This document shows positions 2,453-21,780 of a stretch of DNA of 43,965 nucleotides, piece after piece. The first letter of the stretch is position 1. Each line of letters begins with the position of its first letter. The translations under genes were made by a program, and so were the position numbers. Source of the DNA: Bacilli bacterium (lineage in GTDB: Bacteria > Bacillota > Bacilli > JBOFGC01); NCBI GenBank assembly GCA_051648945.1, contig JBOFGC010000414.1:1-43965 (forward strand), in the 5' to 3' direction. The notes beneath the pieces are model-generated. The model ran no database searches, had not been told where the DNA came from, and saw only the letters and a program-made list of their open reading frames with translations.

Positions 2453-2458
2453 TCTATA

Positions 2459-2480
2459 GGGGTCGAAAGACCCCGTTTTT
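2459..2480 (+). terminator. Rho-independent terminator after gp23 copy 1
   Basis: GGGGTC-GAAA-GACCCC hairpin followed by GTTTTT, 7 nt after the stop codon. Confidence 0.8.
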
Positions 2481-2484
2481 CTCA

Positions 2485-2492
2485 CATAAATA
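2485..2492 (+). promoter_or_regulatory. Late-promoter-like box CATAAATA upstream of gp23 copy 2
   Basis: 7/8 match to the T4 late promoter TATAAATA, located 41 nt upstream of the ATG at 2533. It is followed by a CATAGATTA element that is also found upstream of copy 3. Confidence 0.35.
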
Positions 2493-2532
2493 CAACATAG
2501 ATTACACAGATTTTTAATTATAGGATTCTAAA

Positions 2533-4128: not shown

Positions 4129-4137
4129 TTGACTTTC

Positions 4138-4155
4138 GAGGGCCGAAAGGCCCTC
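4138..4155 (+). terminator. GC hairpin after gp23 copy 2 (weak terminator, no U-tract)
   Basis: GAGGGCC-GAAA-GGCCCTC hairpin followed by TAAATAAAG rather than a T-run. Confidence 0.5.
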
Positions 4156-4162
4156 TAAATAA
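4155..4162 (+). promoter_or_regulatory. Late-promoter-like box CTAAATAA upstream of gp23 copy 3
   Basis: TAAATA core followed by the CATAGATTA element, 32 nt upstream of the ATG at 4194. This call is weaker than for the exact TATAAATA boxes elsewhere in the window. Confidence 0.3.
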
Positions 4163-4193
4163 AGCATAGATTATAGCCTAACAGGAATTTAAA

Positions 4194-5850: not shown

Positions 5851-5891
5851 CACTAAATACAATAAAGAAACAATATTTGAGGCAACGGATT

Positions 5892-6224
5892 ATGCAGCAA
5901 ATTATTAAAGATGCCAAGTGTGATCCTGCAACTGGTAAATCTATTATCCTATCATACACTGTTAATAGCAGAAAGACAAGGACGACTTCCATTCAAATGG
6001 TCTCAACAGCAGACCAATCCGGAGTCGACACTCATTGCATTGGGTGGCTACAAGGCTCAAACGACAACATCAACTGGTTTAATATCGCAAAATTAGAAAC
6101 ACAAGGTCAGGATATCCAATACGACGGCGGACCCTTCGAAGCGTTGTGGGAATCTATGATATTTCGACTAGAGCAAACCGAAAATGCAACAGTCGATGTA
6201 TTCATTACACAAAGGGAAGCATAA
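5892..6224 (+). CDS. Small conserved protein, paralogue A, partner of a collagen-like fibre; function unknown
   Basis: 110 aa when started at the ATG at 5892 (GAGG SD 9 nt upstream; the ORF track uses a TTG at 5877). It is clearly paralogous to 9964-10296 (..R.TS.QMV......D......Q.SN....WFN.A.LET.G...Q.DGGP.EALWE). Its stop lies 3 nt before the next ATG. Confidence 0.75.
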   Translation: MQQIIKDAKCDPATGKSIILSYTVNSRKTRTTSIQMVSTADQSGVDTHCIGWLQGSNDNINWFNIAKLETQGQDIQYDGGPFEALWESMIFRLEQTENATVDVFITQREA

Positions 6225-7962: not shown

Positions 7963-9948
7963 ATGACTATGAAAAGAAATATTGGAACCCAAGGAAAATT
8001 TGCAGCAATTGATGCAACAGGAAGATCGATTGAGTTCGTCGATCTTCCCCTACAACCAATCGTTGATGACATTACGGCGTTGCAAGACGCCGATGTTCAG
8101 TTATCTTCTAGAGTTGATGGCGTAGAAACTAAGGTATCAGATTTAGAAAATAAACCGAACCCCGCTTATAAGTTCATTGAATTATCGGATACTCCTGGAG
8201 GTTATCAACCAGGAAAACTTGTTGGTTATAATCTATCCGGAGATGCGTTGATTGCGTATGAAAATCGAGATGAATTCTCTAAGCTAAAAGACACACCATC
8301 GACATACACCGGACAAGCTACGAAAGTTCTAACTGTGAAGACAGACGAATCTGGATTAGAATTTACCAACTATCCAAACGTAGGTCAAATCATTCCTAGA
8401 ATTGATGACTTGGAAACGAGAGCCACAGATCTTGAGAATACAACAATCGATCTTTCTACTACTGTTGATGATACCGTTAGTAGAGTTGATGTGCTTGAGA
8501 GAAAACCAGATCCGGAATATAGTTTCAATGATTTGACTGACACCCCTGGTGGATATCAACCTGGTCAGCTTATCGGATACAACTTAGCCGGCGATGCGCT
8601 CATGGCTTATGATAGGAGAGACGCATTAACAGATTTAACGGACACTCCTGACGCTTACTTGGGGCAATCGACTAAAGTGTTGACTGTCAAGACTGACGAA
8701 TCTGGACTTGAGTTTACCGATTATCCTCCGGTAGCTAATATTCAGGATCAATTGAATGACCATGGTTATCGTATAAACATCATCGAGCCAGATCTTTCCG
8801 ATGCGAGAATTAGAATAACTGCGCTAGAAACAAGCCCTACTACATTCAAAGATTTATCGGATACGCCTAGTGACTTTACAGGTCAAGCAAGAAAAACGCT
8901 AACCGTTAATGATTCCGAGGATGGATTTGAGTTTGCGCCGTTTCCTAATGTTGGCAATCTTGAATATCGAGTTGATCGAGTAGAAACCGATGTGACTGGG
9001 TTAAATGACAGAGCTGATACATTGGAAACGGATGTTTCCGCTTTGATTGATACAACAGATACAATCGAAACTGAGGTTGGTGTAATTGGGCCAGGACTTT
9101 TAAAACTTAATACTGACTTACTGTCTGGTAATCAGCCATTGAAGCACAAAAGTTTAGGTGCCGCATTGAGACTTACTGGTGCTGCTATATTTCCTATAGC
9201 CTTTGTTGCCGCTGCTCCTATTGTGTTTTCTAGTAGAACCGGAGACTCGACGATGGTTCTACCAAAAATAGTAGGAGAGGATTCTACTGTATTAGCTGCG
9301 GACGAAGTTAGAAATGGGACAATTATTAGAATTGTTAAAATTGGTACTGGGAAATTAACAATAACTCCTTCCGCAGGACACTTTATTAATAGGGCTAACG
9401 TCAACTATGACTCTCATATTGTTCCTCTAAATGAAATTCATACATTTATGTCAGGAACATATGCAAATGGTAATAAGTGCTGGATGTACGTCGAGGCTGA
9501 TAGTCATACGTATGATGACGAAATATCTCCAACAAAGCTAAAAGCCTCGATTGTTGGTTTATCGACTGGCGAAACTCCTATTGGAAATAGAGGAATATCT
9601 TCGGGAGTTATTGAAAGCACGTTCAACATGCAAGACTATAGTGTAGCTATGAACGATCATATTATTTGCAGGCATACCGGAACTGCCCAAGGTAGAGTTT
9701 TTATGCCAGAAATAGTAGATTATGATGTAGTGTCATTGACAAATACTCAGGTTAGAACTGGTCGAGTTACTAGAGTTTATAACTACGGAACTAACGAGAT
9801 TGCATTAAGAAACGGAAAGATCGTCGAAAAAGATGGTACTGAAAATAGTGATTATACGTTAGCTCCTGGTGAGTTCGTTGAACTTTTTCCTACTAGCGGA
9901 AGTAGCAACCCTCGTTGGATTTTGTTATTCAAGCAGACATGTCTATAA
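7963..9948 (+). CDS. Fibre-like structural protein with internal tandem repeats (661 aa)
   Basis: A 117-aa unit (KP.P.Y.F..L.DTPGGYQPG.L.GYNL.GDAL.AY..RD....L.DTP..Y.GQ.TKVLTVKTDESGLEFT.YP) occurs twice, plus a third partial copy. Heptad-like D/E/T-rich linkers separate the units. The alternative ATG at 7969 has the better SD. Confidence 0.8.
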   Translation: MTMKRNIGTQGKFAAIDATGRSIEFVDLPLQPIVDDITALQDADVQLSSRVDGVETKVSDLENKPNPAYKFIELSDTPGGYQPGKLVGYNLSGDALIAYENRDEFSKLKDTPSTYTGQATKVLTVKTDESGLEFTNYPNVGQIIPRIDDLETRATDLENTTIDLSTTVDDTVSRVDVLERKPDPEYSFNDLTDTPGGYQPGQLIGYNLAGDALMAYDRRDALTDLTDTPDAYLGQSTKVLTVKTDESGLEFTDYPPVANIQDQLNDHGYRINIIEPDLSDARIRITALETSPTTFKDLSDTPSDFTGQARKTLTVNDSEDGFEFAPFPNVGNLEYRVDRVETDVTGLNDRADTLETDVSALIDTTDTIETEVGVIGPGLLKLNTDLLSGNQPLKHKSLGAALRLTGAAIFPIAFVAAAPIVFSSRTGDSTMVLPKIVGEDSTVLAADEVRNGTIIRIVKIGTGKLTITPSAGHFINRANVNYDSHIVPLNEIHTFMSGTYANGNKCWMYVEADSHTYDDEISPTKLKASIVGLSTGETPIGNRGISSGVIESTFNMQDYSVAMNDHIICRHTGTAQGRVFMPEIVDYDVVSLTNTQVRTGRVTRVYNYGTNEIALRNGKIVEKDGTENSDYTLAPGEFVELFPTSGSSNPRWILLFKQTCL

Positions 9949-9951
9949 ATA
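9944..9951 (+). promoter_or_regulatory. T4-type late promoter TATAAATA
   Basis: Exact TATAAATA 12 nt upstream of the ATG at 9964, overlapping the stop codon of the preceding gene. Confidence 0.55.
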
Positions 9952-9963
9952 ATAGGAAATAGT

Positions 9964-10296
9964 ATGCAGAAAATTATCACAAACGCCAAAGTGATCAACG
10001 GGAATATTATATATTCCCCTGTTTTCTACACTGGTAGAGCTAAACGCACTTCCGTGCAGATGGTAGTAAACTCAACCTCTGCTCAAGATAGCGACGCTAA
10101 AGCTTACATTCAGGTCTCAAATAATGGAGAAGAGTGGTTCAATGTAGCTATTTTAGAAACCGACGGAACAGGATTACAAAAGGATGGTGGACCATACGAA
10201 GCGTTATGGGAATACACCAGAATATTAATAGAGAAAACTCCAGAACACGGCCCAGGAAGGGTAAACGTCTACGCAACGATAAGAGAGACGACATAA
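9964..10296 (+). CDS. Small conserved protein, paralogue B, partner of a collagen-like fibre
   Basis: 110 aa, paralogous to 5892-6224 and in the same position immediately upstream of a collagen-like fibre gene. Confidence 0.75.
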   Translation: MQKIITNAKVINGNIIYSPVFYTGRAKRTSVQMVVNSTSAQDSDAKAYIQVSNNGEEWFNVAILETDGTGLQKDGGPYEALWEYTRILIEKTPEHGPGRVNVYATIRETT

Positions 10297-10309: not shown

Positions 10310-13300
10310 ATGAAATTAGATGAACGCTTTATTATCGCACCAATTCGTTCCAAGGGGGGCCAACCTGGCCCTATTGGTCCACAGGGGCCGAAAGGTGAGA
10401 ACGGTGTTGACGGATTGCCCCCAGAACATGAGTGGGATGCAACGAAATTAAAGTTCAAAAACCCAGATGGCACTTGGGGACAAGAAGTCGATCTGAAGGG
10501 AGAAAAGGGAGATTCTGGTGGCTCTGTACCAGGACAAACTTCAATTCAGGTTGAAGACCAATCAGGAAATAAGAACGATTTGTCTGTCGTAAAATATAAA
10601 TCAAACTCCGAATTTATTAAATACGATCCTTCTGATACATCGTTGTCTATCAATGCGCCAGAAAGAGTGTTTGATATTAAATGGTCGGTTGATAAAGTTT
10701 CAGATTTGCCTAATGGAACTACTGCAATCGCAGGGTCGCTTGCATACGCGTTGGAAACCTCAAAAACTTATCAGTATAACGGAACTGCTTGGTTAGAAGT
10801 TGATTTTGAACATCATCCAATTTCCGCTATCGATCTAGACAAGATTTTAACTCCCGGAAAATGGATAACCGAAAAACTATCAATTGGATCTACCAGTATT
10901 GTGCTGGATTCAAAAGAAACATTTTTGGGAATTTATGATACATTAGACGATCTTGAGAAATCAAAAGCCGATAAGATTGCTGGGCAAACTTTTGCAATCG
11001 TTAAGTGTGCTAGTTCGAATAGACAACTAGAAACCAATAAGATGTTTGTGTTCACCGGTATTTCGGGAGGAGTAGATCTGTGGTCTCCTATTGAAGTTAG
11101 TGGAAACTTAATTTTATCGACAACTGGAAACTCGGCAGCTATTGGTGAATTTAAGAGTATCACCGCTGGTGATAACGTTACCATCGACTATGATACAACT
11201 AACAAAAATATCACAATTAAGTCACTTGGTCCAGGTGCACCCACAGATCTATCTGAATATCTGAAAGGCTCTAATGTTAGGAGTAAATTCCCAGCTAGTG
11301 ATTGGCTTGAAATTTCTTGGGATAGTCTTGGAAAGATTCTTAATGTCGGCGTAAAGAAACCAGACTTCGATAAAATGAATGATATTCTCGTTGCTGGAAA
11401 TAACATTAGTTTCGAAAAAGATGCTAGTGGATTCTTGAAGATTAATGCCGAAGCTCACGTAGATTTGACGAATTATGTAATGGGCGCTTTGACCGAAGGT
11501 CAAAATGGAATCAAAACTAACTTCGACCAAGCTAACCAAAAATTAACTTTGGGATATGAACCAAAATATGCCGACTTGGATTTATTAGTTGAGGCCGGAA
11601 ATAACATTACATTAGAACAAGGAACTGGAGAAAAGGTAAAGGTTAGTGCTGTAATTCCTCCTCCGATTCCTGTTGACCTGAGTGAGTATGCCAAGAAGTC
11701 TAACATTAAAATTCCTCTAGACGACTGGGGAACGACCGATGTTGTTGGCGAAGAAGTGCAATTAAAGATTAAACCTACAGCAACTCAATTTGCGGACATG
11801 ATTACTTCGAATGGAGACACAATCGCTATTGTCAATGGAAATCAAGTAGACTTGAAGCACAAAGATATGCGAAAGAAGTTGTATAACATCCTCACTAAGA
11901 AGAGTACGCAAAACGAAGCAATCCTTCAAGCAGGAAATCACATTCATCTTGATACAAGTGACACCGATAAAACTATCACGATAGTTTCTACGGCTCGTGA
12001 GTATGATAGTGCGTCTGTTGATGTGGTTCTTCCGTTAACGTCAACTTGGGATTCGACAAAAGATCAGAAAACAATCGAGTTGAATCTTGCCGAGTTTGCT
12101 AACTTAACCGATGCTGGTCATAGTAATGTTAAAGTTGAATACGATGGCGCGTCGCATAAATTGAAATACAACGTTGACCGTTCTTTGATTCCTGTTGTTG
12201 CCATTCAGAAAGACGCAAGTGGAAACGAAGAAAGTTTGGGTGTGTTGCAAATCAATAACTCTGGTAACAACTTAGTAATACAAGATGATTCAGGTCACCC
12301 AGGCAAGAAGCGGGCAGTCTTGACTCTGCCAGACTTTCCAACTCAGTTGACCGGCGAGTTCGGAACAGATACTGGTCCACTGACTAAGTTAATTCTGAAA
12401 GGTGAAGTTACAGAACAAGTCGCCTTTGATACAGTCAAAAACGAAATGACTATCAATCTCGACAAGTCTTATTATGTTGGAAAGCATGCAGATCAATCGA
12501 ATCTTCCTACTACAGGAATTGCGAACAAGTCGTTCGGATTTATTGGGTCTGGGAATGGATATGACAACATCCTGATGCACGATGGTACCAATTGGACTGC
12601 CCAATATCCTGTTACTGGAATGTTAGCTGTTGAATCTGGTGCTACCCCAACTTATAAAGTTGTGAAGCAGATCAAGATGAATCCAGCGGTTACGATTGAT
12701 GCGAATGGTGAGTTAACAATCAATCAAGGCGGTTTACAGTTTGTTCACAATGGACAAACCGATGGACTAAACTCTCTTGAGGTTGCTGGAACTGGAGTTA
12801 CGGCAGATTTCGATTCCGGGACAGGAGCATTGAAACTGAACATCGTTGCTGGAGGTTCGGGAACTGTATCCCCTCTCAAGGTCAGCAAAAAGACTCAAGA
12901 TGGTAGCGTGACAGAATACGACGACACACGAGTGTTACTGTTCGACGGAGACGTTGAGGGTATCACGGTCGAAGACATCACGACTGGCGGAAAGAAAGTA
13001 ACCGTTCCTACAGGAATCATTGTAGAAACCGATACGGATGTTACACAGTTGACAACTAAGTACGTTCCTGCTAAGTACAAGGGCAAGTTTGTTTTCAACT
13101 ACAGCAACGACGCGACTAATCGTCGATGGTTCGCATGTGACGGCGAAGAGTGGTTCACGATAGGAAGCGAGAATTTAACAAAAAGCTTACAAGATATTCT
13201 ATCTCGTTTGCCTGCTCGTATTCCTAAGGGAACAAGCTTAGACACAATCAAAGACAAAACTGGTTGGACTTATTTCGGAGAAACTGTAACAGGTCTTCCT

Positions 13301-14176
13301 GAGTATACAAAACACGACGGTTCTAAGATTATCATGCCGGGTCATGTAATGAACTTAGTCGAAACCGACGATAAAGTACATCAATCCTTCTTCCCTATTG
13401 GGGAATTGCAGTATCCTATGTATAGAAGTTGGGATTCTGTTAACTCAAAATGGAACGATTGGTCAAATGGCGACAACGAGTTGAAGTTACACAATTCAGA
13501 CCCAGATGCTCACGAATTGTTAATATTGCCTGCTATTTCCGCAACAACTAAGTCAAATTGGTTTAGCTTATATGACGATCGGCCTAATGCTTCACGAAAG
13601 GGAAATCTCCCTATCATGTTACTCAGTGATAGTACAGGTAAAGCGGATGTTAACACAAATCCTACAGGAAACGATCTTTATTCGTTAAATGTTCCTAGAA
13701 CAGGCACATACAATATCAGATATGTGTTCCAGTTATCGGGCGTTGCTACTTCTCATGGAACATTAACGTTATCGATCATAAAAAATAACACAACTGTGAT
13801 CAAAACGGCAGTGCAGAGTATCTCCACGTCTGGACAAATGTTCGACGCGTATGAAACTATGGCGACTGATATTCCATTGGCAGTTAATGATGCTATATCA
13901 TTTAAAGTTGAATATACAGGTTCTTCCACATGGACAGAGGATTTCCAGAAGAAATCTGCTCGAATTGATCCTATGAAAAATTATTTCGTTCTGGAACACA
14001 AAGATACGAAATCCGCAAGTCATATTGCCAACACATTCAGAACTGTTCTTGGTGGTCTAGCTATCACGAAAGGATACGAAGCGTTTGTTATGGCAGGAGA
14101 TGCGCAAGGGTCAGCTCCTCAGTTCGTTGAGGTTGTTGGTTCTATCTATAACGAAAATGTAGTTGTGATTAAATAA
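10310..14176 (+). CDS. Large fibre protein with a short N-terminal collagen-like segment (1288 aa)
   Basis: GXY segment at aa 15-38 (GGQPGPIGPQGPKGENGVDGLPP). Recurrent fibre-type motifs AG(N/D)N(I/V)(T/S).. appear (GDNVTIDYD, AGNNISFEKD, AGNNITLEQG, AGNHIHLDTS). Its C-terminal motifs are shared with the 572-aa protein. Confidence 0.85.
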   Translation: MKLDERFIIAPIRSKGGQPGPIGPQGPKGENGVDGLPPEHEWDATKLKFKNPDGTWGQEVDLKGEKGDSGGSVPGQTSIQVEDQSGNKNDLSVVKYKSNSEFIKYDPSDTSLSINAPERVFDIKWSVDKVSDLPNGTTAIAGSLAYALETSKTYQYNGTAWLEVDFEHHPISAIDLDKILTPGKWITEKLSIGSTSIVLDSKETFLGIYDTLDDLEKSKADKIAGQTFAIVKCASSNRQLETNKMFVFTGISGGVDLWSPIEVSGNLILSTTGNSAAIGEFKSITAGDNVTIDYDTTNKNITIKSLGPGAPTDLSEYLKGSNVRSKFPASDWLEISWDSLGKILNVGVKKPDFDKMNDILVAGNNISFEKDASGFLKINAEAHVDLTNYVMGALTEGQNGIKTNFDQANQKLTLGYEPKYADLDLLVEAGNNITLEQGTGEKVKVSAVIPPPIPVDLSEYAKKSNIKIPLDDWGTTDVVGEEVQLKIKPTATQFADMITSNGDTIAIVNGNQVDLKHKDMRKKLYNILTKKSTQNEAILQAGNHIHLDTSDTDKTITIVSTAREYDSASVDVVLPLTSTWDSTKDQKTIELNLAEFANLTDAGHSNVKVEYDGASHKLKYNVDRSLIPVVAIQKDASGNEESLGVLQINNSGNNLVIQDDSGHPGKKRAVLTLPDFPTQLTGEFGTDTGPLTKLILKGEVTEQVAFDTVKNEMTINLDKSYYVGKHADQSNLPTTGIANKSFGFIGSGNGYDNILMHDGTNWTAQYPVTGMLAVESGATPTYKVVKQIKMNPAVTIDANGELTINQGGLQFVHNGQTDGLNSLEVAGTGVTADFDSGTGALKLNIVAGGSGTVSPLKVSKKTQDGSVTEYDDTRVLLFDGDVEGITVEDITTGGKKVTVPTGIIVETDTDVTQLTTKYVPAKYKGKFVFNYSNDATNRRWFACDGEEWFTIGSENLTKSLQDILSRLPARIPKGTSLDTIKDKTGWTYFGETVTGLPEYTKHDGSKIIMPGHVMNLVETDDKVHQSFFPIGELQYPMYRSWDSVNSKWNDWSNGDNELKLHNSDPDAHELLILPAISATTKSNWFSLYDDRPNASRKGNLPIMLLSDSTGKADVNTNPTGNDLYSLNVPRTGTYNIRYVFQLSGVATSHGTLTLSIIKNNTTVIKTAVQSISTSGQMFDAYETMATDIPLAVNDAISFKVEYTGSSTWTEDFQKKSARIDPMKNYFVLEHKDTKSASHIANTFRTVLGGLAITKGYEAFVMAGDAQGSAPQFVEVVGSIYNENVVVIK

Positions 14177-14211: not shown

Positions 14212-14730
14212 ATGGCACAAAGACCTATCCCAATGCCTATTCTATCGCCATTCTACAACAGAGCGGTGATGGATGTTCATCTAAATAATTATGATATTGT
14301 TTATATCAAACCAATAGAAGATAAACTCGATGCAATTAAGCCTGTTGTTTTTGTTAAGTCGGATTTATCTGAGGTAGAAGTTCAAAAAATAAAGATTAGC
14401 GATCGGTCAAAAGCAACATATGATCCATTAGATAAATCACTTACATTGAATCTCGACACCAGTCCAGTAGGCGCGCTGAAATTTACAGACTTAATCGGTG
14501 TACCTAACTCTTATCCGAAAGACACAGATCTGAAAACAGGACATGCCGGAGTCACCGGCGCGGATGAAACATCCATGGTTCTGGTAGCAAAGAGTGATGG
14601 TATATATTTCGTTAACCATCCAGTCGGATCTGAGATTGAGCCTAGAAAATCGAGATCAAAACAGCAACAACAAGATATCATTGAGTCGCTGGAAGCGCGT
14701 ATATCTTTTCTAGAAAGCAAATTAAAATGA
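14212..14730 (+). CDS. Hypothetical structural protein (172 aa) with a C-terminal coiled-coil
   Basis: Good SD (AAGGA) and location within the fibre cluster. The C-terminus QQQQDIIESLEARISFLESKLK looks like a coiled-coil. I recognise no family for it. Confidence 0.6.
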   Translation: MAQRPIPMPILSPFYNRAVMDVHLNNYDIVYIKPIEDKLDAIKPVVFVKSDLSEVEVQKIKISDRSKATYDPLDKSLTLNLDTSPVGALKFTDLIGVPNSYPKDTDLKTGHAGVTGADETSMVLVAKSDGIYFVNHPVGSEIEPRKSRSKQQQQDIIESLEARISFLESKLK

Positions 14731-14746: not shown

Positions 14747-16339
14747 ATGAGTACACCTCCGTTAATTAATTCGGGAATGATTCTATTTGATCCAAATCCA
14801 AATGGAACAGGTCCGATATTACCTCCTGGCCGACAAACTTGGCTAAATCAAAAAATATTAGATATCGATAAAGAGATTAAAGATCTAGAAGCGAGTGGAG
14901 TGAAGCCCGGAAAGGATGGGCATACCGTAGAGATGAAAATCGACGACTTTCCGGTAGACACTTCTATTCCTCCAGATCAAAGAAAGCCTGCAATTGTTTG
15001 GCGACTTGCTGCGCAACCAGGAGAGTCTGAATATACATGGAATCTACTTGTATATCGTGAAGATTTAATGGGGCCAAATGGTCCAGCGGGTCCAGCGGGT
15101 CCTCAAGGTCCTATGGGCGCACCAGGAAAGGATGGAGTCGGAGTAAACTTTCACGCGAGTGTTAGATACGAGGCAGATCTAGCAAAGACTCCTTCGGTAG
15201 TTGGCGATGCAATCCTTGTGACCGGGTCTGGTGACTTGTGGGTACTGACTACACTTCCATATAACAAAAAATCTAACTGGAAAAATCTTGGACACATCCA
15301 GGGACCTGCTGGACCTAGAGGATATACTGGTCCTAGAGGATACACTGGTCCACAAGGTCCCGCCGGAGGAGGCGGAATAGGTCAATTTATTCTACAGTGG
15401 ATTGTCGACTCCGCGACATCAGCGGCAATTTCTGCGGTGACATCCACTGTGATGGCGGAAATGACAGCAGCATTAGATACGTTGACTAATCAGTTAATGA
15501 GCGTAATGGAATCCACAGCCGAGAACGTCGTACAAGAAGCTCTAGATAAAGCGTGGGATGAACTCAAAGGCGATAAAGGCGAAAAGGGTGATAAAGGCGA
15601 CAACGGAAAGGACGGAAAGTCCGTTAAACTGGTAGGAAAATTCGCGTCTAAAGCCCAATTTATGGCAAAGTATCCGTTATTAACTGATAACGTAGGTGTT
15701 GCTGGATTATGTGGTGACGACCCGATGAAACCCAAAGAGTTATGGGCTATCACTCAAGATTCATCGGGAGTATTTCCTTATCCTCCTACATATACCAATC
15801 TTGGAGATATTCGGGGTCCTAAGGGAGAAGCGGCTCGATGGGAAATCTCAGTTCGAGATACTGCATTTACCGAAAAGATTAAAGTTGTTGTCGACTCAGA
15901 CATTGACCCTTCTGTTGCTAGTATGTACGTTAGAGACACGGATTCTATCGTATGCGAAGGACTCCACGGAAGTCAAATCGACCCGACTCAAGTTGGTCTA
16001 CGCTTTTCAATGAGACATCCAATTCCTAGACCCGCAAAGAAAGATGACCCATCTGGAAAGCCATCAACTGTAGATAAAGTGTTATCGAACGACGGCGAAA
16101 AATTAATCTGGATCGAAGCTCCGGAAGGCGGAAAGAAGTCAAAGGAAGAAATTTTACTCAAAGCTCCAGACCAAACCGTCTGGTCGATTACTGTTGATGA
16201 TTACGGTCGGTTGCATCAGAATCTTTCTACCGAAGCATCCGATAACACAGCAGAGAAACTCCAAGCCCCCAATGGAGGAGTTTACAATTTACATGTTGAC
16301 AATGAAGGCCAATTGCATGTAACAAAATCGATTTCATAA
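14747..16339 (+). CDS. Collagen-like repeat protein with three separate GXY segments (530 aa)
   Basis: GXY runs at aa 109-132, 186-210 and 274-291 (nt 15071-15142, 15302-15376, 15566-15619). A hydrophobic or helical segment lies between runs 2 and 3. Confidence 0.8.
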   Translation: MSTPPLINSGMILFDPNPNGTGPILPPGRQTWLNQKILDIDKEIKDLEASGVKPGKDGHTVEMKIDDFPVDTSIPPDQRKPAIVWRLAAQPGESEYTWNLLVYREDLMGPNGPAGPAGPQGPMGAPGKDGVGVNFHASVRYEADLAKTPSVVGDAILVTGSGDLWVLTTLPYNKKSNWKNLGHIQGPAGPRGYTGPRGYTGPQGPAGGGGIGQFILQWIVDSATSAAISAVTSTVMAEMTAALDTLTNQLMSVMESTAENVVQEALDKAWDELKGDKGEKGDKGDNGKDGKSVKLVGKFASKAQFMAKYPLLTDNVGVAGLCGDDPMKPKELWAITQDSSGVFPYPPTYTNLGDIRGPKGEAARWEISVRDTAFTEKIKVVVDSDIDPSVASMYVRDTDSIVCEGLHGSQIDPTQVGLRFSMRHPIPRPAKKDDPSGKPSTVDKVLSNDGEKLIWIEAPEGGKKSKEEILLKAPDQTVWSITVDDYGRLHQNLSTEASDNTAEKLQAPNGGVYNLHVDNEGQLHVTKSIS

Positions 16340-16353
16340 CAAGGAAGTAGCTA

Positions 16354-18177
16354 ATGCCTATTGTTAATAACAGAAGTTTCGTTTATCAAGAAACTCCTAA
16401 TGATTATAGTGATATCAAACAAACGATCAAGGGTCAGCAAATGCTGACTCTTAAAAAGTTCCAGGGTCAATCTCCAACATCAGGAGAAAGTCCTGACTAT
16501 TACGGACAAATCGGGGCGGGTAGTAAGCCTGATGGTTCTCCTACAGTTTGGATTTCAAACGCTGGTCCAAACTCAGTAAACGGATGGGATCAGATTTCAA
16601 CCGGACCTTATAGTGATGAGTTTGCGAATAAAGATAAAGCTAATAACTTTTCTAATCTTAGTCAAACTATTTTGAATAAGCAGATTCCTTATGTGGACCA
16701 AGGTTATATTTCTGTTGATCACGTGCCTATTAAAGGTCAAGGTCATATCTACATCGACGCATCCGTTGTAGACCAACCGCGAGTGCATATCGCTATGGTT
16801 GCAACAGGTGGTGGGTATCAGTGGGTTCAAATTACAGACCACACCGAACTCGATAATATCGCTATGAAAAACACACAGAACAACTTTAAGGATGGAAGAC
16901 AAACTATTATTAATCAGTCTATCGCGTCTATTAATCCTAGTCTTAGTAAGCCGCTAGCTCCTGTTCGTTCAGGCGAGATGTTCTTGAAGAAGGGCGATTC
17001 GACTAAAGGAGAAAAACCTGCGCTTTGGATCTCAACATCCACAGCAACAGGCGCGTTTGAATGGGTTCCAGTTTCGGCTTCGTTGGATCAAGATATCGTT
17101 TATAGAAACGTCAAGAATAACTTCACTGAGTTTAATCAAACTATAGTGGGTAAACAAATCATGTCGTTTGCCTCTAGAGGAGATCAACCGCCATCTGGAT
17201 ATAAGCCGGATTATGATGGTCAGATGTATATCGCGTTCAAAACACTATCGACCGGAACAAAAGACGCGGCCGTTTGGGTAGCAAATGGAAATACGTGGGT
17301 TCCTTTATCCGCAAACTTAGACCCATCAAAAGTTGCAATGAAGGATAAAGAGAATGAATTCACGAACGCGAGTCAGACTATCAAAACTGGAACCGAGTCT
17401 AGTCAGATTACTGGTGCTAGAATTAAATTGGGTGACCAATCCCCAATTGCGGATAGTTCCTATAAAGCTACTATGTTAGGTGAAGTCTGCGTTTATAAAA
17501 ACGATTCCGTCGTTCCTTCTGAAATCTCGGTGTGGTTAGCTATTAGCATTAATCCTAGTCCAACAACAAACGCCGGCGAGTGGACGATGATTTATTCTTC
17601 CAAGATGGATTATACCAAAATGGCAAGAACAGATTTGGGCAACACGTTCGAAAAAGGCCAAAGGATTATTGGAGCCACAAATAAACCTCAGGATGTGGTG
17701 ACTGCTAGATTCGAATATGATGACACTCCTAAAAACAAATACAGAGCACTGAACGTTGGAGAGTTGTTTATTACAGATCAGGAGCAGCCTGGAGGAGCTC
17801 CCGATGAGATTGATGTTTGGATGGCACATAAACCCAACGACCCGTCGTCGTGGGTGAAAATATACGATAAACCAATTGATAAAATTGTTCGTTCTAACGA
17901 AGAAACTTTCTTCACCGACAAATTGTTCTTGGGTGCACCTAGTAACACAAAGAGACTCAGAATAAATGGCGCAAGAGAAGCAAAAGGAACGGTTTATAAC
18001 ACCACGATGCCTTTGCAACTGGGAGAAACTGTGATGTGTGAAGTTGTTGAAGGAAGCAAAACATATATCGTAATCTATATGTGTGCTATGGATCAGAGTT
18101 CAACTCCAGAAGGACAAAAGTCAAGAAAGAATTGGATTGAGATTGGAAGAAGATTAAAATCCGAACTCGTTCATTAA
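16354..18177 (+). CDS. Repeat-array structural protein (607 aa, about 7 units of ~85 aa)
   Basis: Repeated unit: ..(K/R).(x)NNF(T/S)..(Q)TI.G.qi ... PDY.GQ.Y ... .(V/L)W(I/V) ... W..(I/L/V)(S/Y). It is paralogous to the next ORF and has an AAGGAAG SD. Confidence 0.8.
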   Translation: MPIVNNRSFVYQETPNDYSDIKQTIKGQQMLTLKKFQGQSPTSGESPDYYGQIGAGSKPDGSPTVWISNAGPNSVNGWDQISTGPYSDEFANKDKANNFSNLSQTILNKQIPYVDQGYISVDHVPIKGQGHIYIDASVVDQPRVHIAMVATGGGYQWVQITDHTELDNIAMKNTQNNFKDGRQTIINQSIASINPSLSKPLAPVRSGEMFLKKGDSTKGEKPALWISTSTATGAFEWVPVSASLDQDIVYRNVKNNFTEFNQTIVGKQIMSFASRGDQPPSGYKPDYDGQMYIAFKTLSTGTKDAAVWVANGNTWVPLSANLDPSKVAMKDKENEFTNASQTIKTGTESSQITGARIKLGDQSPIADSSYKATMLGEVCVYKNDSVVPSEISVWLAISINPSPTTNAGEWTMIYSSKMDYTKMARTDLGNTFEKGQRIIGATNKPQDVVTARFEYDDTPKNKYRALNVGELFITDQEQPGGAPDEIDVWMAHKPNDPSSWVKIYDKPIDKIVRSNEETFFTDKLFLGAPSNTKRLRINGAREAKGTVYNTTMPLQLGETVMCEVVEGSKTYIVIYMCAMDQSSTPEGQKSRKNWIEIGRRLKSELVH

Positions 18178-18194
18178 TGGTTAAAGGAATAATC

Positions 18195-19697
18195 ATGCCA
18201 TACGATAAGAGTGTTGTTTATAGAGAGACTCCTAATAATTTCACAGACGTCCATCAGATGATGGGCGGTTCTCAAATTGTCTCTATTAAAATATTTGCTG
18301 GACCAGGACCAGATAAAAGTCCCGATTATTTGGGACAACTTGGAATGCATATGAAAAACGACGGTAGCGTTGTTTTATGGGTTTCTAGAATGTTTAAAGG
18401 GTATCTGGACTGGGATATTGTCTCCAGTCCAACCGATCTACCACTTCCAGATAACGCGGTTAGAGAGGATTCGGATAATGAATTTAGTGTGTATGAGCAA
18501 AAGATTCAAGGTTCTCAGATCGCATCGGTGACTCACGGAACACATGCCGCGGACAAGGAACCTATTAAAGGGGAGGGTCATATCTACGTCCGAGATAATG
18601 AATACACTCCAGAGGTGTATGTTGCGTTTAACAAATCATCCGGGTTGGATTGGACCAGAGTTGCGAATCACGAGATACTAGATAGTATTGTTTATAGAGA
18701 TTTATCGAACAACTTCACAGACGATGCACAGACTATCAATGGAGTTCCGATTGGTACAGTATCGACCAGTATACTAGACCCAGTTGCTTCCAAAATTGAA
18801 CCTGCTCGTTCTGGTGAGATTTGGATTCAATCTAGCAAGGCAACTACCACTAGATTCCCTCGTATGTGGATATCGAAGGACCTGTCGATTCCAGACGTAT
18901 CCCACTGGGAAGAGATTAGTTCTTCTGCTGGAGGAGTTCCAGCTAACGTAGCTATAACAGATAAGCCTAATAATTTCACAAATCTAAAACAAGAGATCAA
19001 CGGCAAGCGAGTTCTATCGTTCGTGGATGGAGGAGATAAAACTCCAGAGCAATCTAAGTTATCCGCGGATTACGACGGTCAGTTGTATGTAGCAGTAAGA
19101 GGAGATGACCCTGCGATCTGGATCGCAAAAGGAAATAAGTGGCTGCCTATTCTTTCTAACGTTGTTGTGACGAATAGAGTCAATCGATTCGTTCCTCTTC
19201 AAGAAATGGGAACAGGTAACCGAGTTGTTAGAATCATCGGCGCAAGTCAAGGAACTGTTAATCCACTGAGTGTAAATTTAGTTCCGTTAACAGATGGTGA
19301 AATCTACGTACAGACTATCGACCATCCGACCGGTGGATTTGATAGAAATGTTTGGGTAGCTGCCGAAGGCGGAGACACGACATCTTGGATGAAGGTGTTT
19401 GATGATAAGAATCACACGATAGCAAGAACTAACGAAACTAACCATTTCGAAAATAAAGTTCAATATCTTGGATACGAATCTGATTTGTCTAAAGAGTCTA
19501 TCGTGGGAGCTAGACAATATAATCTCGACAATCCTACATCATCTGATAGTCCCAACAACTATACTCCTCACAGAACAGGAGAAATCATCGTTCTTCAAGA
19601 AGAAGAACAAGGAGAGATGTTCTGGGTTACATACATGGGAATAGTACAAGGAAATAAAAAAGCATGGACTGAACTCAGTCATGTTAAAATTCCGTAA
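18195..19697 (+). CDS. Repeat-array structural protein, paralogue (about 500 aa, about 6 units)
   Basis: MPYDKSVVYRETPNNFTD aligns with MPIVNNRSFVYQETPNDYSD of the previous ORF, and the same repeat unit is used. The ATG at 18195 has an AAAGGA SD. The track start at 18177 forms a TAATG overlap and cannot be excluded. Confidence 0.8.
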   Translation: MPYDKSVVYRETPNNFTDVHQMMGGSQIVSIKIFAGPGPDKSPDYLGQLGMHMKNDGSVVLWVSRMFKGYLDWDIVSSPTDLPLPDNAVREDSDNEFSVYEQKIQGSQIASVTHGTHAADKEPIKGEGHIYVRDNEYTPEVYVAFNKSSGLDWTRVANHEILDSIVYRDLSNNFTDDAQTINGVPIGTVSTSILDPVASKIEPARSGEIWIQSSKATTTRFPRMWISKDLSIPDVSHWEEISSSAGGVPANVAITDKPNNFTNLKQEINGKRVLSFVDGGDKTPEQSKLSADYDGQLYVAVRGDDPAIWIAKGNKWLPILSNVVVTNRVNRFVPLQEMGTGNRVVRIIGASQGTVNPLSVNLVPLTDGEIYVQTIDHPTGGFDRNVWVAAEGGDTTSWMKVFDDKNHTIARTNETNHFENKVQYLGYESDLSKESIVGARQYNLDNPTSSDSPNNYTPHRTGEIIVLQEEEQGEMFWVTYMGIVQGNKKAWTELSHVKIP

Positions 19698-19700
19698 AAT

Positions 19701-19726
19701 AAAAAAGGAGCCTTCGGGCTCCTTTT
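19701..19726. terminator. Bidirectional rho-independent terminator
   Basis: AAAAAA-GGAGCC-TTCG-GGCTCC-TTTT between convergent genes. Confidence 0.85.
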
Positions 19727-19736
19727 GTCATAAATA

Positions 19737-20489
19737 TTAAGATCCTGTAAACGGACCAAATACTTTAATAGGCACACCTTTGCATGTTTTCGTGTCGATC
19801 TGATGTCTATATCCATTTCGACTATCGGTAGCGATTAAACTTGTTGTGCCAAAGAACAATGCCAGTAAAGGAATTGTTACAGGATTTTTTAGCAACTCGG
19901 TCTGAAACGCGACTGGTGTATCTGCGTTGTTTCCTGCTAAAATCTCATTTGCGGCATCGATTGCATCCCAACGAACATGAGCATAAGACAACCCATGAAA
20001 CTCAATCCATTGTGCCTTATATAAAGTATCTGGATTGAAGCCGACAGGAATAACATTCACTGCAACATCGACTTCACCGGACTCGGTTTCCGTGCTGTCT
20101 GTTTCTGTTACTTTGCACTTATACTTTCCAGCGTCGCTTGCCGCGCATTTGTCAATCACTAGACGTTGTGTTGTTTGTCCTGCAATTGCGTTGCCGTCCT
20201 TTGTCCAAGAATAAGTGACGGTTTCCGGATCAGGAATGTCTTCTAGTTTCGCATAAAGTGCGATCTCCGCTCCTACAATCGTGTTGACGCTGGCTGGCTC
20301 AATCGTCACCACTTTCGCACGAGGAATAATAGAGCGCATGTTCAGTTGAGAACTCATTTCTGAAACCATATTATCGATAGTTTTTGATGTGATGTTAACA
20401 CCTAACTCTTCTGCGTATTCTTTCATCGCAACCTTGGCTTTGGCTGTCGATAATAATTTAATTTGTTCAATCCTTTGTAAATCAATCAT
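19737..20489 (-). CDS. Ig-like (I-set type) domain protein, possible Hoc-like capsid decoration protein
   Basis: The central segment TYSWTKDGNAIAGQTTQRLVIDKCAASDAGKYKCKVTE is a classic Ig I-set signature (W..., DxGxYxC). It sits next to gene 24, as hoc does in T4, and has an exact late promoter 34 nt upstream. The capsid-decoration role is inferred. Confidence 0.6.
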   Translation of the reverse strand: MIDLQRIEQIKLLSTAKAKVAMKEYAEELGVNITSKTIDNMVSEMSSQLNMRSIIPRAKVVTIEPASVNTIVGAEIALYAKLEDIPDPETVTYSWTKDGNAIAGQTTQRLVIDKCAASDAGKYKCKVTETDSTETESGEVDVAVNVIPVGFNPDTLYKAQWIEFHGLSYAHVRWDAIDAANEILAGNNADTPVAFQTELLKNPVTIPLLALFFGTTSLIATDSRNGYRHQIDTKTCKGVPIKVFGPFTGS

Positions 20490-20531: not shown

Positions 20532-20556
20532 ACACCTAATAATGGGACCTTTAACA

Positions 20557-21780
20557 ATGTCTAATATTCTTAACGAGTTGATCCAAGAATCGACTGTATC
20601 TGCCAATATCGACTTAGGACGTCCACAGTTACTTGCATTGACTCGCGCGGTCAACGAGTTGATTTATACGGACTTAGTTGCTATTCAAAAAACAAAAACA
20701 CCAATCGCCACCCTTCTAGGTATGCGCTATAAGAACAGAGATGGAGAGATGACATTCCGTACTCCTGCAACGTATGGCGGCTTGTACGGAGACAGAAGTA
20801 AGGTTACGTTGGAACTATCATCAAATCTTTTATCTTTCGCAAAAGATGACGTGTTCAAATATCAAAGTGTTGTATATCAAGCAATCGAAGCTGTTAATTT
20901 GCAAGATCTTGGCGGCGGCGACGACATTGATAAACAACTAGCACTTGCTTTGATGATAAATAAAGTTCGTATCATGTCGGACGCAGGCGAAACTGGAACA
21001 ATGGAATACATTGAGCCTTCTGAGTCTATGTTAACAATCAACCGTTGGAAAATCGAAGCTAAGACAAGAAAGTTGAAATCTGAAGTATCTCACGAATTCA
21101 TTCAAGACTTAAAAGCAAATGGCCTGGACGCTGATAACGTGATCAGACAAATGCTGGCACATGAGATCGCAGATGAAATAAATAGAGATGTTATGCAGAA
21201 ATTGCAGACTGTATCCATTCGTCATGTTTCTCCAACAACTGCTTCTGGCATTTATTTCGCTGGCGGATCGACTGATGACCCTATCAAAGGTCGTACACTG
21301 TACCGTATTGTTGCTGAAATGGCAAGACAATTGCAGTCAGAAACGTCGTTTGATGCAACTTATGTTCTTTGTTCACCTAGAGTTGCAGGATTACTGACAT
21401 CATCTGGATGGTTGAAGGGCGATCCTACAATGCGTAGATTGTATGCAGGAACGTTAACAGATGGTCTGAAAGTTTATGTAGATACTGTGTCTAGATTTGA
21501 TTATCTGGTAGTAGGAACAAAACAAACGATGGACGAACTGGAATCTATCGGTTCTCTATTCTACACTCCTTACGTCGAACAAGACGATGTAGGATTTACG
21601 ATTGTAAATAGTCCAGAAGATTTACAACCTCGTTATATGTGTATGGCTCGTTATGGATTATCCGTTAACCCATACACAACATCAACAGAAAATGAACAAA
21701 TCAACGCCGGTGATAACTGGAACGAATTGGCTGGTAAGTCAAAGTACAGTCGTTTCGTCGGTGTAGTGTTCGGTAGTTAA
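20557..21780 (+). CDS. 24: Capsid vertex protein (T4 gp24 homologue)
   Basis: MSNILNELIQEST...GRPQLLALTRA...LIY.D.VA.Q.T..P aligns with the T4 gp24 N-terminus (MAKINELLREST..GRPNLVALTRA). Further matches include INRWK.EAK.RKLK, LYRIV.EM, SGWLK and RYGLSVNPYT. The track start at 20542 lacks an SD. Confidence 0.9.
   Translation: MSNILNELIQESTVSANIDLGRPQLLALTRAVNELIYTDLVAIQKTKTPIATLLGMRYKNRDGEMTFRTPATYGGLYGDRSKVTLELSSNLLSFAKDDVFKYQSVVYQAIEAVNLQDLGGGDDIDKQLALALMINKVRIMSDAGETGTMEYIEPSESMLTINRWKIEAKTRKLKSEVSHEFIQDLKANGLDADNVIRQMLAHEIADEINRDVMQKLQTVSIRHVSPTTASGIYFAGGSTDDPIKGRTLYRIVAEMARQLQSETSFDATYVLCSPRVAGLLTSSGWLKGDPTMRRLYAGTLTDGLKVYVDTVSRFDYLVVGTKQTMDELESIGSLFYTPYVEQDDVGFTIVNSPEDLQPRYMCMARYGLSVNPYTTSTENEQINAGDNWNELAGKSKYSRFVGVVFGS

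What the first reader, a model, noticed from the sequence alone, without database searches (positions are those of the whole stretch)
16354..19697. Two tandem paralogues built from 6-7 copies of an ~85-aa repeat I cannot assign to a family
Seen: both proteins open with MP....(S)(F/V)VY(Q/R)ETPN(D/N)(Y/F)(S/T)D and then iterate a unit. The unit is a polar lead-in, (N/E)N(N/E)F(T/S/K)..(Q)(T)I.G.(Q)I, roughly 20 variable residues, a (P)DY.GQ(L/M/I)(Y/G) or SGE(M/I)(F/W) core, a short variable loop, .(V/L/I)W(I/V/L)(S/A)..., and ...W..(I/V/L). Examples are NNFSNLSQTILNKQI, NNFKDGRQTIINQSI, NNFTEFNQTIVGKQI, NEFTNASQTIKTG, NNFTDDAQTINGVPI and NNFTNLKQEINGKRV. The two genes are coupled by either the TAATG overlap or an 18-nt gap. 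They end at a strong bidirectional terminator next to the Hoc-like gene. Inference: these are strings of small beta-domains and could be elongated decoration or fibre proteins.
Basis: partly seen in the sequence, partly recalled or inferred. Interest (0 to 1): 0.6.

Follow-up and report, generated by a model that had tools for sequence, protein, structure and literature searches.

The report
New repeat domain in phage fibres
Two neighbouring late genes of an uncultured T4-like phage encode proteins made only of 7 and 6 copies of a previously undescribed ~80-residue domain, and they most likely form the beaded outer part of an extra virion fibre whose inner part is the collagen-like protein encoded just upstream.

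Summary
ORF A (16354-18177, 607 aa) and ORF B (true start 18195, 500 aa) are paralogues (32% identity, E 9e-68). A has 7 and B has 6 copies of a 71-96-aa unit with the pattern N-x-F...Q-x-I-x-G...G-(E/Q)...W...W.

The unit matches nothing in Pfam, PHROGs, NCBIfam, PDB sequences or PDB folds. It is absent from 50,697 deposited phage genomes. A unit profile finds only 61 clusters among 1.84 billion, about 34 of them with the complete unit.

Context gives the function. In 9 of 9 independent loci, on at least three phage backbones, the unit protein directly follows a ~480-540-aa collagen-like protein. One of the nine is a single fused gene. Relatives append coiled coils, the T4 gp37 trimerisation region or Ig domains behind 3-8 N-terminal units.

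I read A and B as bead-string subunits of a trimeric, multi-protein virion fibre in the late operon s110-f1288-p172-c530-A-B. The same bin holds a canonical gp34-37 tail-fibre locus, so this fibre is accessory. Whether it is anchored on the tail or the head is unresolved.

A and B evolve as slowly as core genes and have no hypervariable tip. This is a new domain family in a known kind of protein. An earlier scan note covers the whole fibre cluster on this same stretch; nothing was found on other DNA.

The parts
16354..18177 (+). Gene A: 607 aa, 7 units, no other domain
   Evidence: ORF. RBS AAGGAAG lies 7 nt upstream of the start. There are 9 full-length orthologues at 62-70% identity.
18195..19697 (+). 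Gene B: 500 aa, 6 units. The alternative upstream ATG at 18177 is probably not used.
   Evidence: Orthologues are 499-501 aa; the one read in full (L001) begins MP.
16381..16623 (+). Unit A1 (aa 10-90). It is preceded by the conserved N-terminal peptide MP....S-F-V-Y-Q-E.
16624..16860 (+). Unit A2 (aa 91-169)
16861..17097 (+). Unit A3 (aa 170-248)
17098..17334 (+). Unit A4 (aa 249-327). This is the unit that was modelled.
17335..17622 (+). Unit A5 (aa 328-423). It has no counterpart in B.
17623..17886 (+). Unit A6 (aa 424-511). It is the least conserved unit among orthologues (55% identity).
17887..18174 (+). Unit A7 (aa 512-607), divergent, with a basic C-terminus
   Evidence: 49 bits to the unit profile
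18216..18458 (+). Unit B1
18459..18689 (+). Unit B2
18690..18950 (+). Unit B3
18951..19163 (+). Unit B4
19164..19421 (+). Unit B5 (corresponds to A6)
19422..19694 (+). Unit B6 (corresponds to A7)
14747..16339 (+). c530: a 530-aa protein with interrupted collagen segments. It is the obligate upstream partner and the proposed inner segment of the fibre.
   Evidence: Collagen hit. It is 44% identical to its counterpart in an SU10-like contig. It is fused to units in P0054.
14212..14730 (+). p172: a 172-aa protein with a C-terminal coiled coil, a possible connector
   Evidence: It is similar to the N-terminus of the 977/694-aa proteins of the SU10-like module.
10310..14176 (+). f1288: a 1288-aa fibre protein with N-terminal collagen. 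Its C-terminal domain (aa 927-1250) is shared with the other phage backbones.
9964..10296 (+). s110: a small protein (phrog_16217), first gene of the operon
9944..9951 (+). T4-type late promoter box TATAAATA, the only one on the + strand between 9944 and 20503
19703..19726 (.). Bidirectional intrinsic terminator that closes the operon

Best explanation
A and B are late-expressed structural proteins of the virion. Each is a string of 7 or 6 small, autonomously folding, mostly beta domains ('beads'), joined by a conserved lead-in (N-N-F-T-x3-Q-T-I-x-G-x2-I).

Three chains probably run side by side as a trimer. This trimer would form the outer segment of a multi-protein fibre. Its inner segment would be the collagen-like protein c530 encoded immediately upstream. 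Further in would be p172 and the 1288-aa fibre protein of the same operon.

The joint is proposed to be non-covalent. It would link the conserved N-terminal peptide of A/B (M-x(2-7)-(F/V)-V-Y-(Q/R)-E-T-P-N-x-(F/Y)) to the small C-terminal hairpin domain of c530. The logic is the same as the gp36-gp37 joint of the T4 long tail fibre.

A and B keep the same N-terminus. They are therefore most simply alternative outer segments for the same dock, giving two fibre forms. This last step is the least certain.

The phage bin also carries a canonical gp34-gp37 locus, so this fibre is accessory. My odds for its anchor are about 50:50 between tail/neck and head.

Shown: the repeat, the paralogy, the synteny, the fusion, the late-operon signals and the autonomous fold prediction. 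Inferred: trimer state, the joint, the role of B and the location on the virion.
For: (1) The repeat and the paralogy are real.

(2) The operon has a late promoter at 9944 and a terminator at 19703-19726, with no other TATAAATA box between them on the + strand.

(3) In 9 of 9 independent loci the unit protein directly follows a c530 homologue. These loci are the window, L001, L002/3, L004, L005, L006, L007 and L008, plus the fused gene in L009. In four of them (L002, L005, L006, L008) the stop and start codons overlap by one base.

(4) In P0054/L009 the c530-like N-terminal region (E 2e-41) is fused in one polypeptide to three units (E 3e-26), followed by a coiled coil. The fusion lacks exactly the c530 C-terminal hairpin domain and the free N-terminal peptide of the unit protein.

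(5) In 28 of 31 family representatives the first unit starts within 13 residues of the N-terminus. After 3-8 units the C-termini diverge: coiled coils; gp37_trimer PF20744 (P0048 at 32.9 bits against a cut-off of 21.7, and also P0086); Big_2; and, in P0046, a C-terminal part that reads like a tailspike beta-helix (my own reading of the sequence; no Pfam hit).

(6) The whole module is shared between T4-like and SU10-like contigs, namely the f1288 C-terminal domain, p172, c530 and the unit protein. The N-termini of the first protein are specific to each backbone.

(7) AlphaFold2 gives one compact domain per unit (pLDDT 82.5). In the monomeric full-length model the lead-ins are of low confidence, which would fit segments that are only ordered in an oligomer.

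(8) The weak BFVD fold hits are dominated by tail-fibre and collagen-like proteins.
Against: - There is no experimental or multimer-model evidence for a trimer.
- The unit folds on its own in silico, so a monomeric bead string is possible.
- A and B have no distinct tip domain and no hypervariable region. Between the window phage and L001 they are 67-70% identical, like gp24 (69%) and UvsW (72%). By contrast f1288 is 48% and the Hoc-like protein 24% identical. This is unlike typical receptor-binding ends.
- Canonical long tail fibre genes lie on contig C564 of the same bin, so the fibre is not needed as the main adsorption organelle.
- In both the T4-like and the SU10-like backbones the cassette lies next to the major capsid genes. 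This would fit a head fibre equally well.
- The fold-search hits are below significance, or they come from a low-confidence model.
- That C564 and C414 belong to one phage is inferred only from the shared bin, similar GC content and single-copy T4 markers.
Confidence: 0.62

Rival explanations
1. A and B are monomeric, Hoc-like capsid decoration proteins. On this reading each is a single chain of independent beta domains projecting from the head, and it is not physically joined to the collagen-like protein.
For: The genes lie in the head block between gene 23 (three paralogues) and gene 24, next to an Ig-domain Hoc-like gene. In SU10-like contigs the cassette follows the capsid genes. The unit is predicted to fold autonomously. 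A and B evolve slowly and lack a variable tip.
Against: The pairing with a c530 homologue holds in 9 of 9 loci, and one locus is a fusion gene. Relatives continue into coiled coils and the gp37 trimerisation region, which are oligomeric fibre elements. A and B lie in one late operon with three other fibre proteins.
Confidence: 0.12
2. Each protein closes into a single 6- or 7-bladed beta-propeller, for example a lectin-like receptor-binding head, rather than an extended string.
For: The unit numbers 6 and 7 are typical of propellers. The weak tail of the unit-profile search matches only the C-terminal half of the unit (profile positions 25-78). Those hits are SBBP, NHL and BNR propeller proteins.
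Against: The unit is about 80 aa, twice the size of a propeller blade. The full-length AlphaFold2 model does not close (pTM 0.22). Family members have anywhere from 2 to 8-9 units, always N-terminal and followed by coiled coils. No propeller Pfam model hits A, B or any of the 61 units even at E<=10. Foldseek against PDB finds no propeller.
Confidence: 0.04
3. A and B are arranged in series or as a mixed trimer rather than as alternatives. Either B docks on the end of A to extend the fibre, or the two chains co-trimerise.
For: A and B always occur together in the T4-like group and co-diverge: winA pairs with P0004 and winB pairs with P0019, and both of those come from the L001 phage. They are separated by only 17 nt.
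Against: The C-terminus of A shows no similarity to the c530 C-terminal hairpin domain that is the proposed dock. A has one unit more than B, so a mixed trimer would be out of register. SU10-like phages manage with one copy.
Confidence: 0.15

Closest known systems
T4 long tail fibre chain gp34-gp35-gp36-gp37
   Same: Several consecutive late genes each encode one segment of a trimeric fibre, joined end to end through N-terminal docking peptides. The gene order runs from a long anchor protein through a small connector and a mid-size segment to the outer segment. Some relatives of A/B end in the gp37 trimerisation region PF20744.
   Different: A, B, c530 and f1288 show no similarity to gp34-37 families. 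A real gp34-37 locus lies elsewhere in the same bin. A and B lack a tip domain and are not hypervariable. The segment upstream is collagen-like.
Collagen-like phage and prophage tail-fibre proteins (PF01391-containing)
   Same: The partner c530 and the neighbours f572 and f1288 carry Gly-X-Y runs interrupted by small globular modules. BFVD fold hits of the unit are weakly enriched in such proteins.
   Different: A and B themselves contain no Gly-X-Y tract. The unit profile does not hit any collagen-like protein of the window.
SU10 (Kuravirus) long tail fibre gp12/gp13, a proximal trimer plus a distal trimer (PMC9509320)
   Same: Both are two-protein trimeric fibres with a joint. Distant homologues of A occur in SU10-like contigs.
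   Different: In those contigs the cassette lies before the adaptor gene. It comes in addition to the usual fibre gene after the adaptor (Peptidase_S74 protein) and the Gp10_C protein further downstream. It is therefore not the gp12/gp13 pair.
Hoc and other Ig-string head decoration proteins
   Same: Both are strings of small beta domains encoded in the head gene block. A Hoc-like Ig protein is the next gene on the opposite strand.
   Different: There is no Ig, PKD or Big match in A/B. The domain is about 80 aa with its own signature. A/B are obligately paired with a collagen-like protein.
Beta-propeller blades (SBBP, NHL, BNR, Reg_prop)
   Same: The C-terminal half of the unit (G-E-x-Y...W...W, three strands) gives weak profile matches to propeller proteins.
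   Different: Only half the unit matches, and only at E 1e-7 to 1e-3 summed over many blades. There is no Pfam propeller hit in A/B. The copy number is variable and there is no ring closure.

Membership tests
Any Pfam-A / PHROG / NCBIfam repeat or domain family | A significant profile match of the whole protein or of a single unit | tested here: not met
   Pfam at E<=1 on A and B gave 0 families. PHROGs gave 0 and NCBIfam gave 0. Scanning 61 single units against Pfam at E<=10 found no family in more than 2 units, with a best E of 0.04.
Proteins of known structure (PDB) | Sequence-profile or fold similarity to a solved chain | tested here: not met
   hmmsearch with the full-length alignment gave 0 hits. 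With the unit alignment the best E was 0.25, to designed trefoils. Foldseek of the unit model (pLDDT 82.5) gave a best E of 0.23 and TM below 0.4.
T4 gp37 / gp36 distal long tail fibre | gp37_trimer (PF20744), the gp37 C-terminal needle, or Phage_T4_gp36 (PF03903) | tested here: not met
   There is no hit in A/B or anywhere in the bin for PF03903 or PF20744. PF20744 is present only in distant family members P0048 and P0086, behind their units.
Collagen-like fibre proteins | Runs of Gly-X-Y (PF01391) | tested here: not met
   A and B have none. The neighbour c530 has three short runs.
Hoc-like / Ig-domain decoration | Tandem Ig, I-set, PKD or Big domains | tested here: not met
   There are no Ig-type hits in A/B. 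The adjacent gene 19737-20489 does have them.
Beta-propeller | 4-10 blades of about 40-50 aa closing into a ring, with a fixed blade number within a family | tested here: not met
   The unit is about 80 aa. Copy number is 2-8 across the family. The full-length model is not closed, although it is of low confidence (pTM 0.22).
The new unit family itself (working definition) | An ~80-aa unit with N-x-(F/Y) at positions 7-9, Q at 14, G at about 18-21, an invariant G-(E/Q/H) before strand 1, (W/Y)-x-(A/S) in strand 2 and an invariant W in strand 3 | tested here: met
   All 13 window units match the 33-unit profile at 49-80 bits (these units were in the training set). Independent single-unit HMMs cross-hit well above the shuffled controls. 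The same unit was found in 28 further units of four other loci.
The new unit family itself (working definition) | The gene sits directly downstream of a c530-type collagen-like gene, or is fused to it | tested here: met
   This holds in 9 of 9 loci.

The most novel reading that the evidence does not exclude
The c530-A/B fibre, and with it the whole 14-kb fibre cluster between genes 23 and 24, may be anchored on the capsid rather than the tail. That would make this a T4-like phage with long, collagen-stalked, beaded head fibres. Such fibres might dock on one of the three diverged major-capsid paralogues encoded just upstream. Each of the 6-7 beads might carry a weak sugar-binding site, so that the fibre works as a multivalent adhesion device with a conserved target rather than as a host-range determinant.
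Probability: 0.25. Interest if true: 0.7.

Novelty: new variant of a known kind. Interest (0 to 1): 0.45.

Why it matters
Phage fibres decide what a phage sticks to, yet a large share of fibre sequence in metagenomes has no domain assignment.

This finding defines a compact, recognisable new building block: an ~80-aa unit with a clear signature, about 34 cluster representatives, and copy numbers from 2 to 8-9. It also defines a portable two-gene cassette, a collagen-like protein plus a unit protein. That cassette has moved between at least three unrelated phage backbones and exists once as a single fused gene. This gives a concrete, testable example of how fibre segments are joined non-covalently and how such joints are created or lost by gene fission or fusion.

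The fibre is additional to the canonical T4 tail fibres, sits in the head-gene block beside three capsid paralogues, and evolves like a core gene. This raises a question about what accessory, non-variable fibres are for. A profile of the unit would let annotation pipelines label these proteins.

Tried and rejected
- hhalign self-comparison of the orthologue alignment returned no off-diagonal hits. I used per-unit HMMs against shuffled controls instead.
- megablast and tblastn of A, c530 and P0031 against 50,697 phage records found no match.
- The IMG/VR scan found nothing with alignment A1. It could not run with the unit alignment, which has no sufficiently conserved 7-10-column stretch.
- Foldseek against PDB found nothing for the unit model. 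Foldseek against BFVD with the unit model found nothing at E<=1e-3.
- Foldseek against BFVD with the full-length model gave E down to 1e-11, but with TM about 0.1 and rmsd 27-40 Å from a model of pLDDT 54. I treat that only as a hint that the protein looks like other fibre predictions.
- I looked for the unit in the other fibre proteins of the window and found nothing.
- I tried to resolve when A and B duplicated. The tree is a polytomy of the A group, the B group, the SU10-like single copies and the long forms.
- I tried to search the longer source contig of L001 for gp34, but the record is not held.
I found no Pfam C1q hit at E<=1 and did not pursue it further.
- I read the A1002 chain-like fibre paper (PMC13730344). 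It describes a different design, with dimers docked on a rope protein, and is not a relative.
Full report
**What is in the sequence**

The window is a 44-kb contig of a divergent T4-like phage. It is contig C414, the largest contig of a 2.6-Mb, 579-contig metagenome bin.

The stretch holds two co-directional ORFs. A runs from 16354 to 18177 (607 aa). B can be read from 18177 through the TAATG overlap, giving 506 aa. However, the nine full-length B orthologues are 499-501 aa, and the one read in full (L001) begins MP like the window's MPYDK form. ATG 18195 also has AAAGGA upstream. B is therefore 500 aa, with a 17-nt gap after A.

A and B share 31.7% identity over 496 residues (E 9e-68). A second alignment, shifted by one repeat, scores E 8e-30.

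**The repeat**

Anchoring on the N-N-F motif divides A into 7 units of 79-96 aa and B into 6 units of 71-91 aa. The consensus of 61 units from seven loci is:

(V/A)-x-(T/K)-(D/N)-x2-N-N-F-T-x3-Q-x-I-x-G-x-Q-I ... G-x2-S-P ... P-x3-G-(E/Q)-x-Y-I ... (W/Y)-x-(A/S) ... W-x2-I

One Gly and one Trp are invariant. The Asn is nearly so, and the Phe (F/Y) is nearly so in the 33-unit subset alignment.

To test against chance I built one HMM per unit from the 13-sequence orthologue alignment. I then searched A, B and 200 shuffled copies.

- Units 1-4 hit one another at 7-34 bits.
- Units 5 and 6 hit each other at 19-24 bits.
- The best shuffled score was 3.6-5.9 bits.
- Unit 7 is marginal by this test (6-9 bits), but it keeps the invariant residues and scores 49 bits against the pooled unit profile.

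The score matrix gives the correspondence A1=B1, A2=B2, A3=B3, A4=B4, A6=B5 and A7=B6. A5 is extra. There is no DNA-level repeat, so the duplications are old.

**Not a known family**

- Pfam at E<=1, PHROGs and NCBIfam give nothing for A or B.
- 61 single units scanned against Pfam at E<=10 give no recurrent family.
- Profiles of the full-length and unit alignments find no PDB sequence.
- AlphaFold2 on full-length A is poor (pLDDT 54). It still shows one small beta domain per unit at pLDDT 64-76, separated by low-confidence lead-ins.
- One unit modelled with the 61-unit alignment gives a compact domain (pLDDT 82.5, pTM 0.67). It has three short strands in the lead-in and a three-stranded meander at residues 43-69.
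- Foldseek finds no PDB neighbour (best E 0.23).
- In BFVD there are only sub-threshold hits (best E 2.4e-3), mostly minor tail, hyaluronidase and collagen-repeat proteins.

**Rarity**

- Only 16 clusters for A and 13 for B were found in 5.8 billion proteins. All are unnamed. Three come from MAGs labelled Plesiomonas or Aeromonas veronii.
- No match exists in 50,697 deposited phage genomes or in IMG/VR.
- A unit profile run against 1.84 billion cluster representatives finds 61 proteins at E<=1e-3.
- About 34 of these carry the complete unit, in 2-8 copies.
- The remainder match only the C-terminal half of the unit. They are SBBP, NHL and BNR propeller proteins. I take this as generic beta-meander resemblance.

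**Context**

The + strand has a T4 late-promoter box at 9944 and none again until 20503. A strong bidirectional terminator lies at 19703-19726. The inferred late operon is:

- s110
- f1288, a fibre protein with N-terminal collagen
- p172
- c530, with interrupted collagen segments
- A
- B

The operon belongs to a fibre cluster inserted between three tandem gene-23 paralogues and gene 24.

In every locus I could fetch, the unit protein directly follows a c530 homologue.

| Locus | Backbone | c530 homologue | Unit protein |
|---|---|---|---|
| Window | T4-like | 530 aa | A and B |
| L001 | T4-like | 533 aa, 73% identical to c530 | A and B forms |
| L002/L003, L005, L006 | SU10-like podophage | 528-529 aa, 43-44% identical | one copy |
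| L004, L007 | short contigs | present | 766-774-aa forms with 8-9 units |
| L008 | third backbone (DNA polymerase A, thymidylate synthase) | 476 aa, E 2e-18 | 722 aa: 3 units, coiled coil, gp37_trimer |
| L009 | not determined | fused into the same gene | 964-aa fusion protein |

The SU10-like cassettes lie between the capsid genes and the adaptor gene. In four loci (L002, L005, L006, L008) the stop and start codons overlap by one base, which implies coupled translation.

**The fusion gene**

P0054 (L009) is a single 964-aa protein. Residues 45-331 match c530 (E 2e-41). Residues 361-630 are three units (E 3e-26 to A). A coiled coil and a C-terminal domain follow.

The fusion lacks precisely the roughly 65-residue C-terminal hairpin domain of c530 and the free N-terminal peptide of the unit protein. 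Those two elements are therefore the likely non-covalent joint in the split version.

**Family architecture**

In 28 of 31 representatives the first unit starts within 13 residues of the N-terminus, usually with M-x(2-4)-V-V-Y-Q-E-T-x-N-N-F-T. After 3-8 units the proteins diverge:

- coiled coils;
- the T4 gp37 trimerisation region (P0048 at 32.9 bits against a cut-off of 21.7; also P0086);
- Big_2 domains;
- in P0046, a C-terminal part that reads like a tailspike beta-helix (my own reading of the sequence; it has no Pfam hit).

This is the usual layout of a fibre protein: a conserved N-terminal shaft and a variable distal end. A and B are the extreme case, with units only.

The module is larger than two genes.

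- f1288 residues 927-1250, p172, part of f661, c530 and A all have counterparts in the SU10-like gene order 859-977-529-615.
- The N-termini of the first protein differ between backbones. This is what one expects if only that end contacts the virion.

**Interpretation**

I conclude that A and B are outer, bead-string segments of a trimeric multi-protein fibre docked on c530. This is analogous in logic, but not in sequence, to the gp34-35-36-37 chain of T4.

Several observations temper this.

1. Contig C564 of the same bin encodes a canonical gp34 (phrog_972, 1054 bits), a gp35-type connector and several gp36/37-type distal subunits. C360 encodes gp9, gp10 and gp19. T4 markers are single-copy in the bin. 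The fibre studied here is therefore accessory.
2. Between the window phage and the L001 phage, A (67%), B (70%) and c530 (73%) are as conserved as gp24 (69%) and UvsW (72%). By contrast f1288 is 48%, p172 is 52% and the Hoc-like protein is 24% identical.
3. Among orthologues B has no variable unit (67-78% identity per unit). In A only unit 6 dips, to 55%. These are not typical host-range tips.
4. In both backbones the cassette lies next to the capsid genes. Attachment to the head is therefore as plausible as attachment to the tail or neck.
5. The relation between A and B is not resolved. They may be alternatives for one dock, arranged in series, or mixed in one trimer. They co-diverge, and the duplication is old.

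**Rivals**

- A monomeric Hoc-like decoration fits the gene position and the autonomous fold. It does not fit the obligate collagen partner, the fusion gene or the coiled-coil relatives.
- A closed 6/7-bladed propeller fits the copy numbers and the weak propeller hits. It does not fit the 80-aa unit size, the variable copy number, the unclosed model or the absence of any propeller profile match.

**Verdict**

This is a new domain family and a new portable fibre cassette within a known kind of protein, the phage fibre. It is of moderate interest. Its interest would rise if the fibre proves to be a head fibre linked to the three capsid paralogues.

Noticed in passing
window 803-5822: Three tandem intact gp23-type major capsid paralogues (549, 531 and 542 aa), each matching phrog_138 at E about 1e-154. 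A gp24-like protein lies at 20542-21780, and its best database hits are annotated as capsid vertex protein (45% identity).
   Followed up: partly
G000 contig C564, 4959-22627 (locus L010): A canonical T4 long-tail-fibre locus lies in the same bin. It has gp34 (1171 aa, phrog_972, 1054 bits), a gp35-type connector and at least five gp36/37-type distal-subunit genes. Two of these share the N-terminus MANLKSGTLIGGN, which suggests alternative distal fibres.
   Followed up: partly
window 7963-9948 (f661), aa 430-510: The C-terminal domain of f661 is homologous to the C-terminal tip domain of the distant unit proteins L009_964 (aa 878-958, E 1e-6) and L008_722 (aa 637-714). f661 residues 52-159 match an internal part of the SU10-like 977-aa protein (48% identity). 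Fibre domains appear to be shuffled among these proteins.
   Followed up: no
window 16130-16336 (c530 C-terminus): The last ~65 residues of c530 contain two copies of a ~22-aa hairpin-like motif (LKAPDQTVWSITVDDYGRLHQNLS and LQAPNGGVYNLHVDNEGQLHVTKS). The SU10-like homologue also has two copies, the L008 homologue has one, and the fusion protein P0054 has none.
   Followed up: partly
window 18177-19697: The public gene call for B in the source record is only 350 aa (P0025: 100% identity, 70% coverage). The deposited annotation therefore truncates this gene.
   Followed up: no
G000 as a whole: Of the five longest contigs of the bin (26-44 kb), four look like parts of one T4-like phage: C414, C564 and C360, and probably C83 (judged only from a weak gp23 hit, GC content and size). 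C498 is bacterial (RNA polymerase, EF-G, EF-Tu). The median contig is 3.4 kb and overall GC is 39%. The phage is therefore much better assembled than the bacterium it was binned with, and the binning says little about the host.
   Followed up: partly
window 5877-6224 and 9964-10296: Two paralogous small proteins (phrog_16217, 115 and 110 aa) each sit immediately upstream of a fibre gene that starts with M-(E/K)-L-(N/D)...I-A-P-x-R..G-G followed by collagen. They may be fibre assembly or attachment factors.
   Followed up: no
loci L002, L005 (SU10-like contigs): These SU10-like phages carry the four-gene fibre module between the capsid genes and the adaptor gene. This comes in addition to the usual fibre gene after the adaptor (Peptidase_S74, 1036-2241 aa) and a Gp10_C protein further downstream. 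SU10 itself has only gp10 at that position (PMC9509320).
   Followed up: partly
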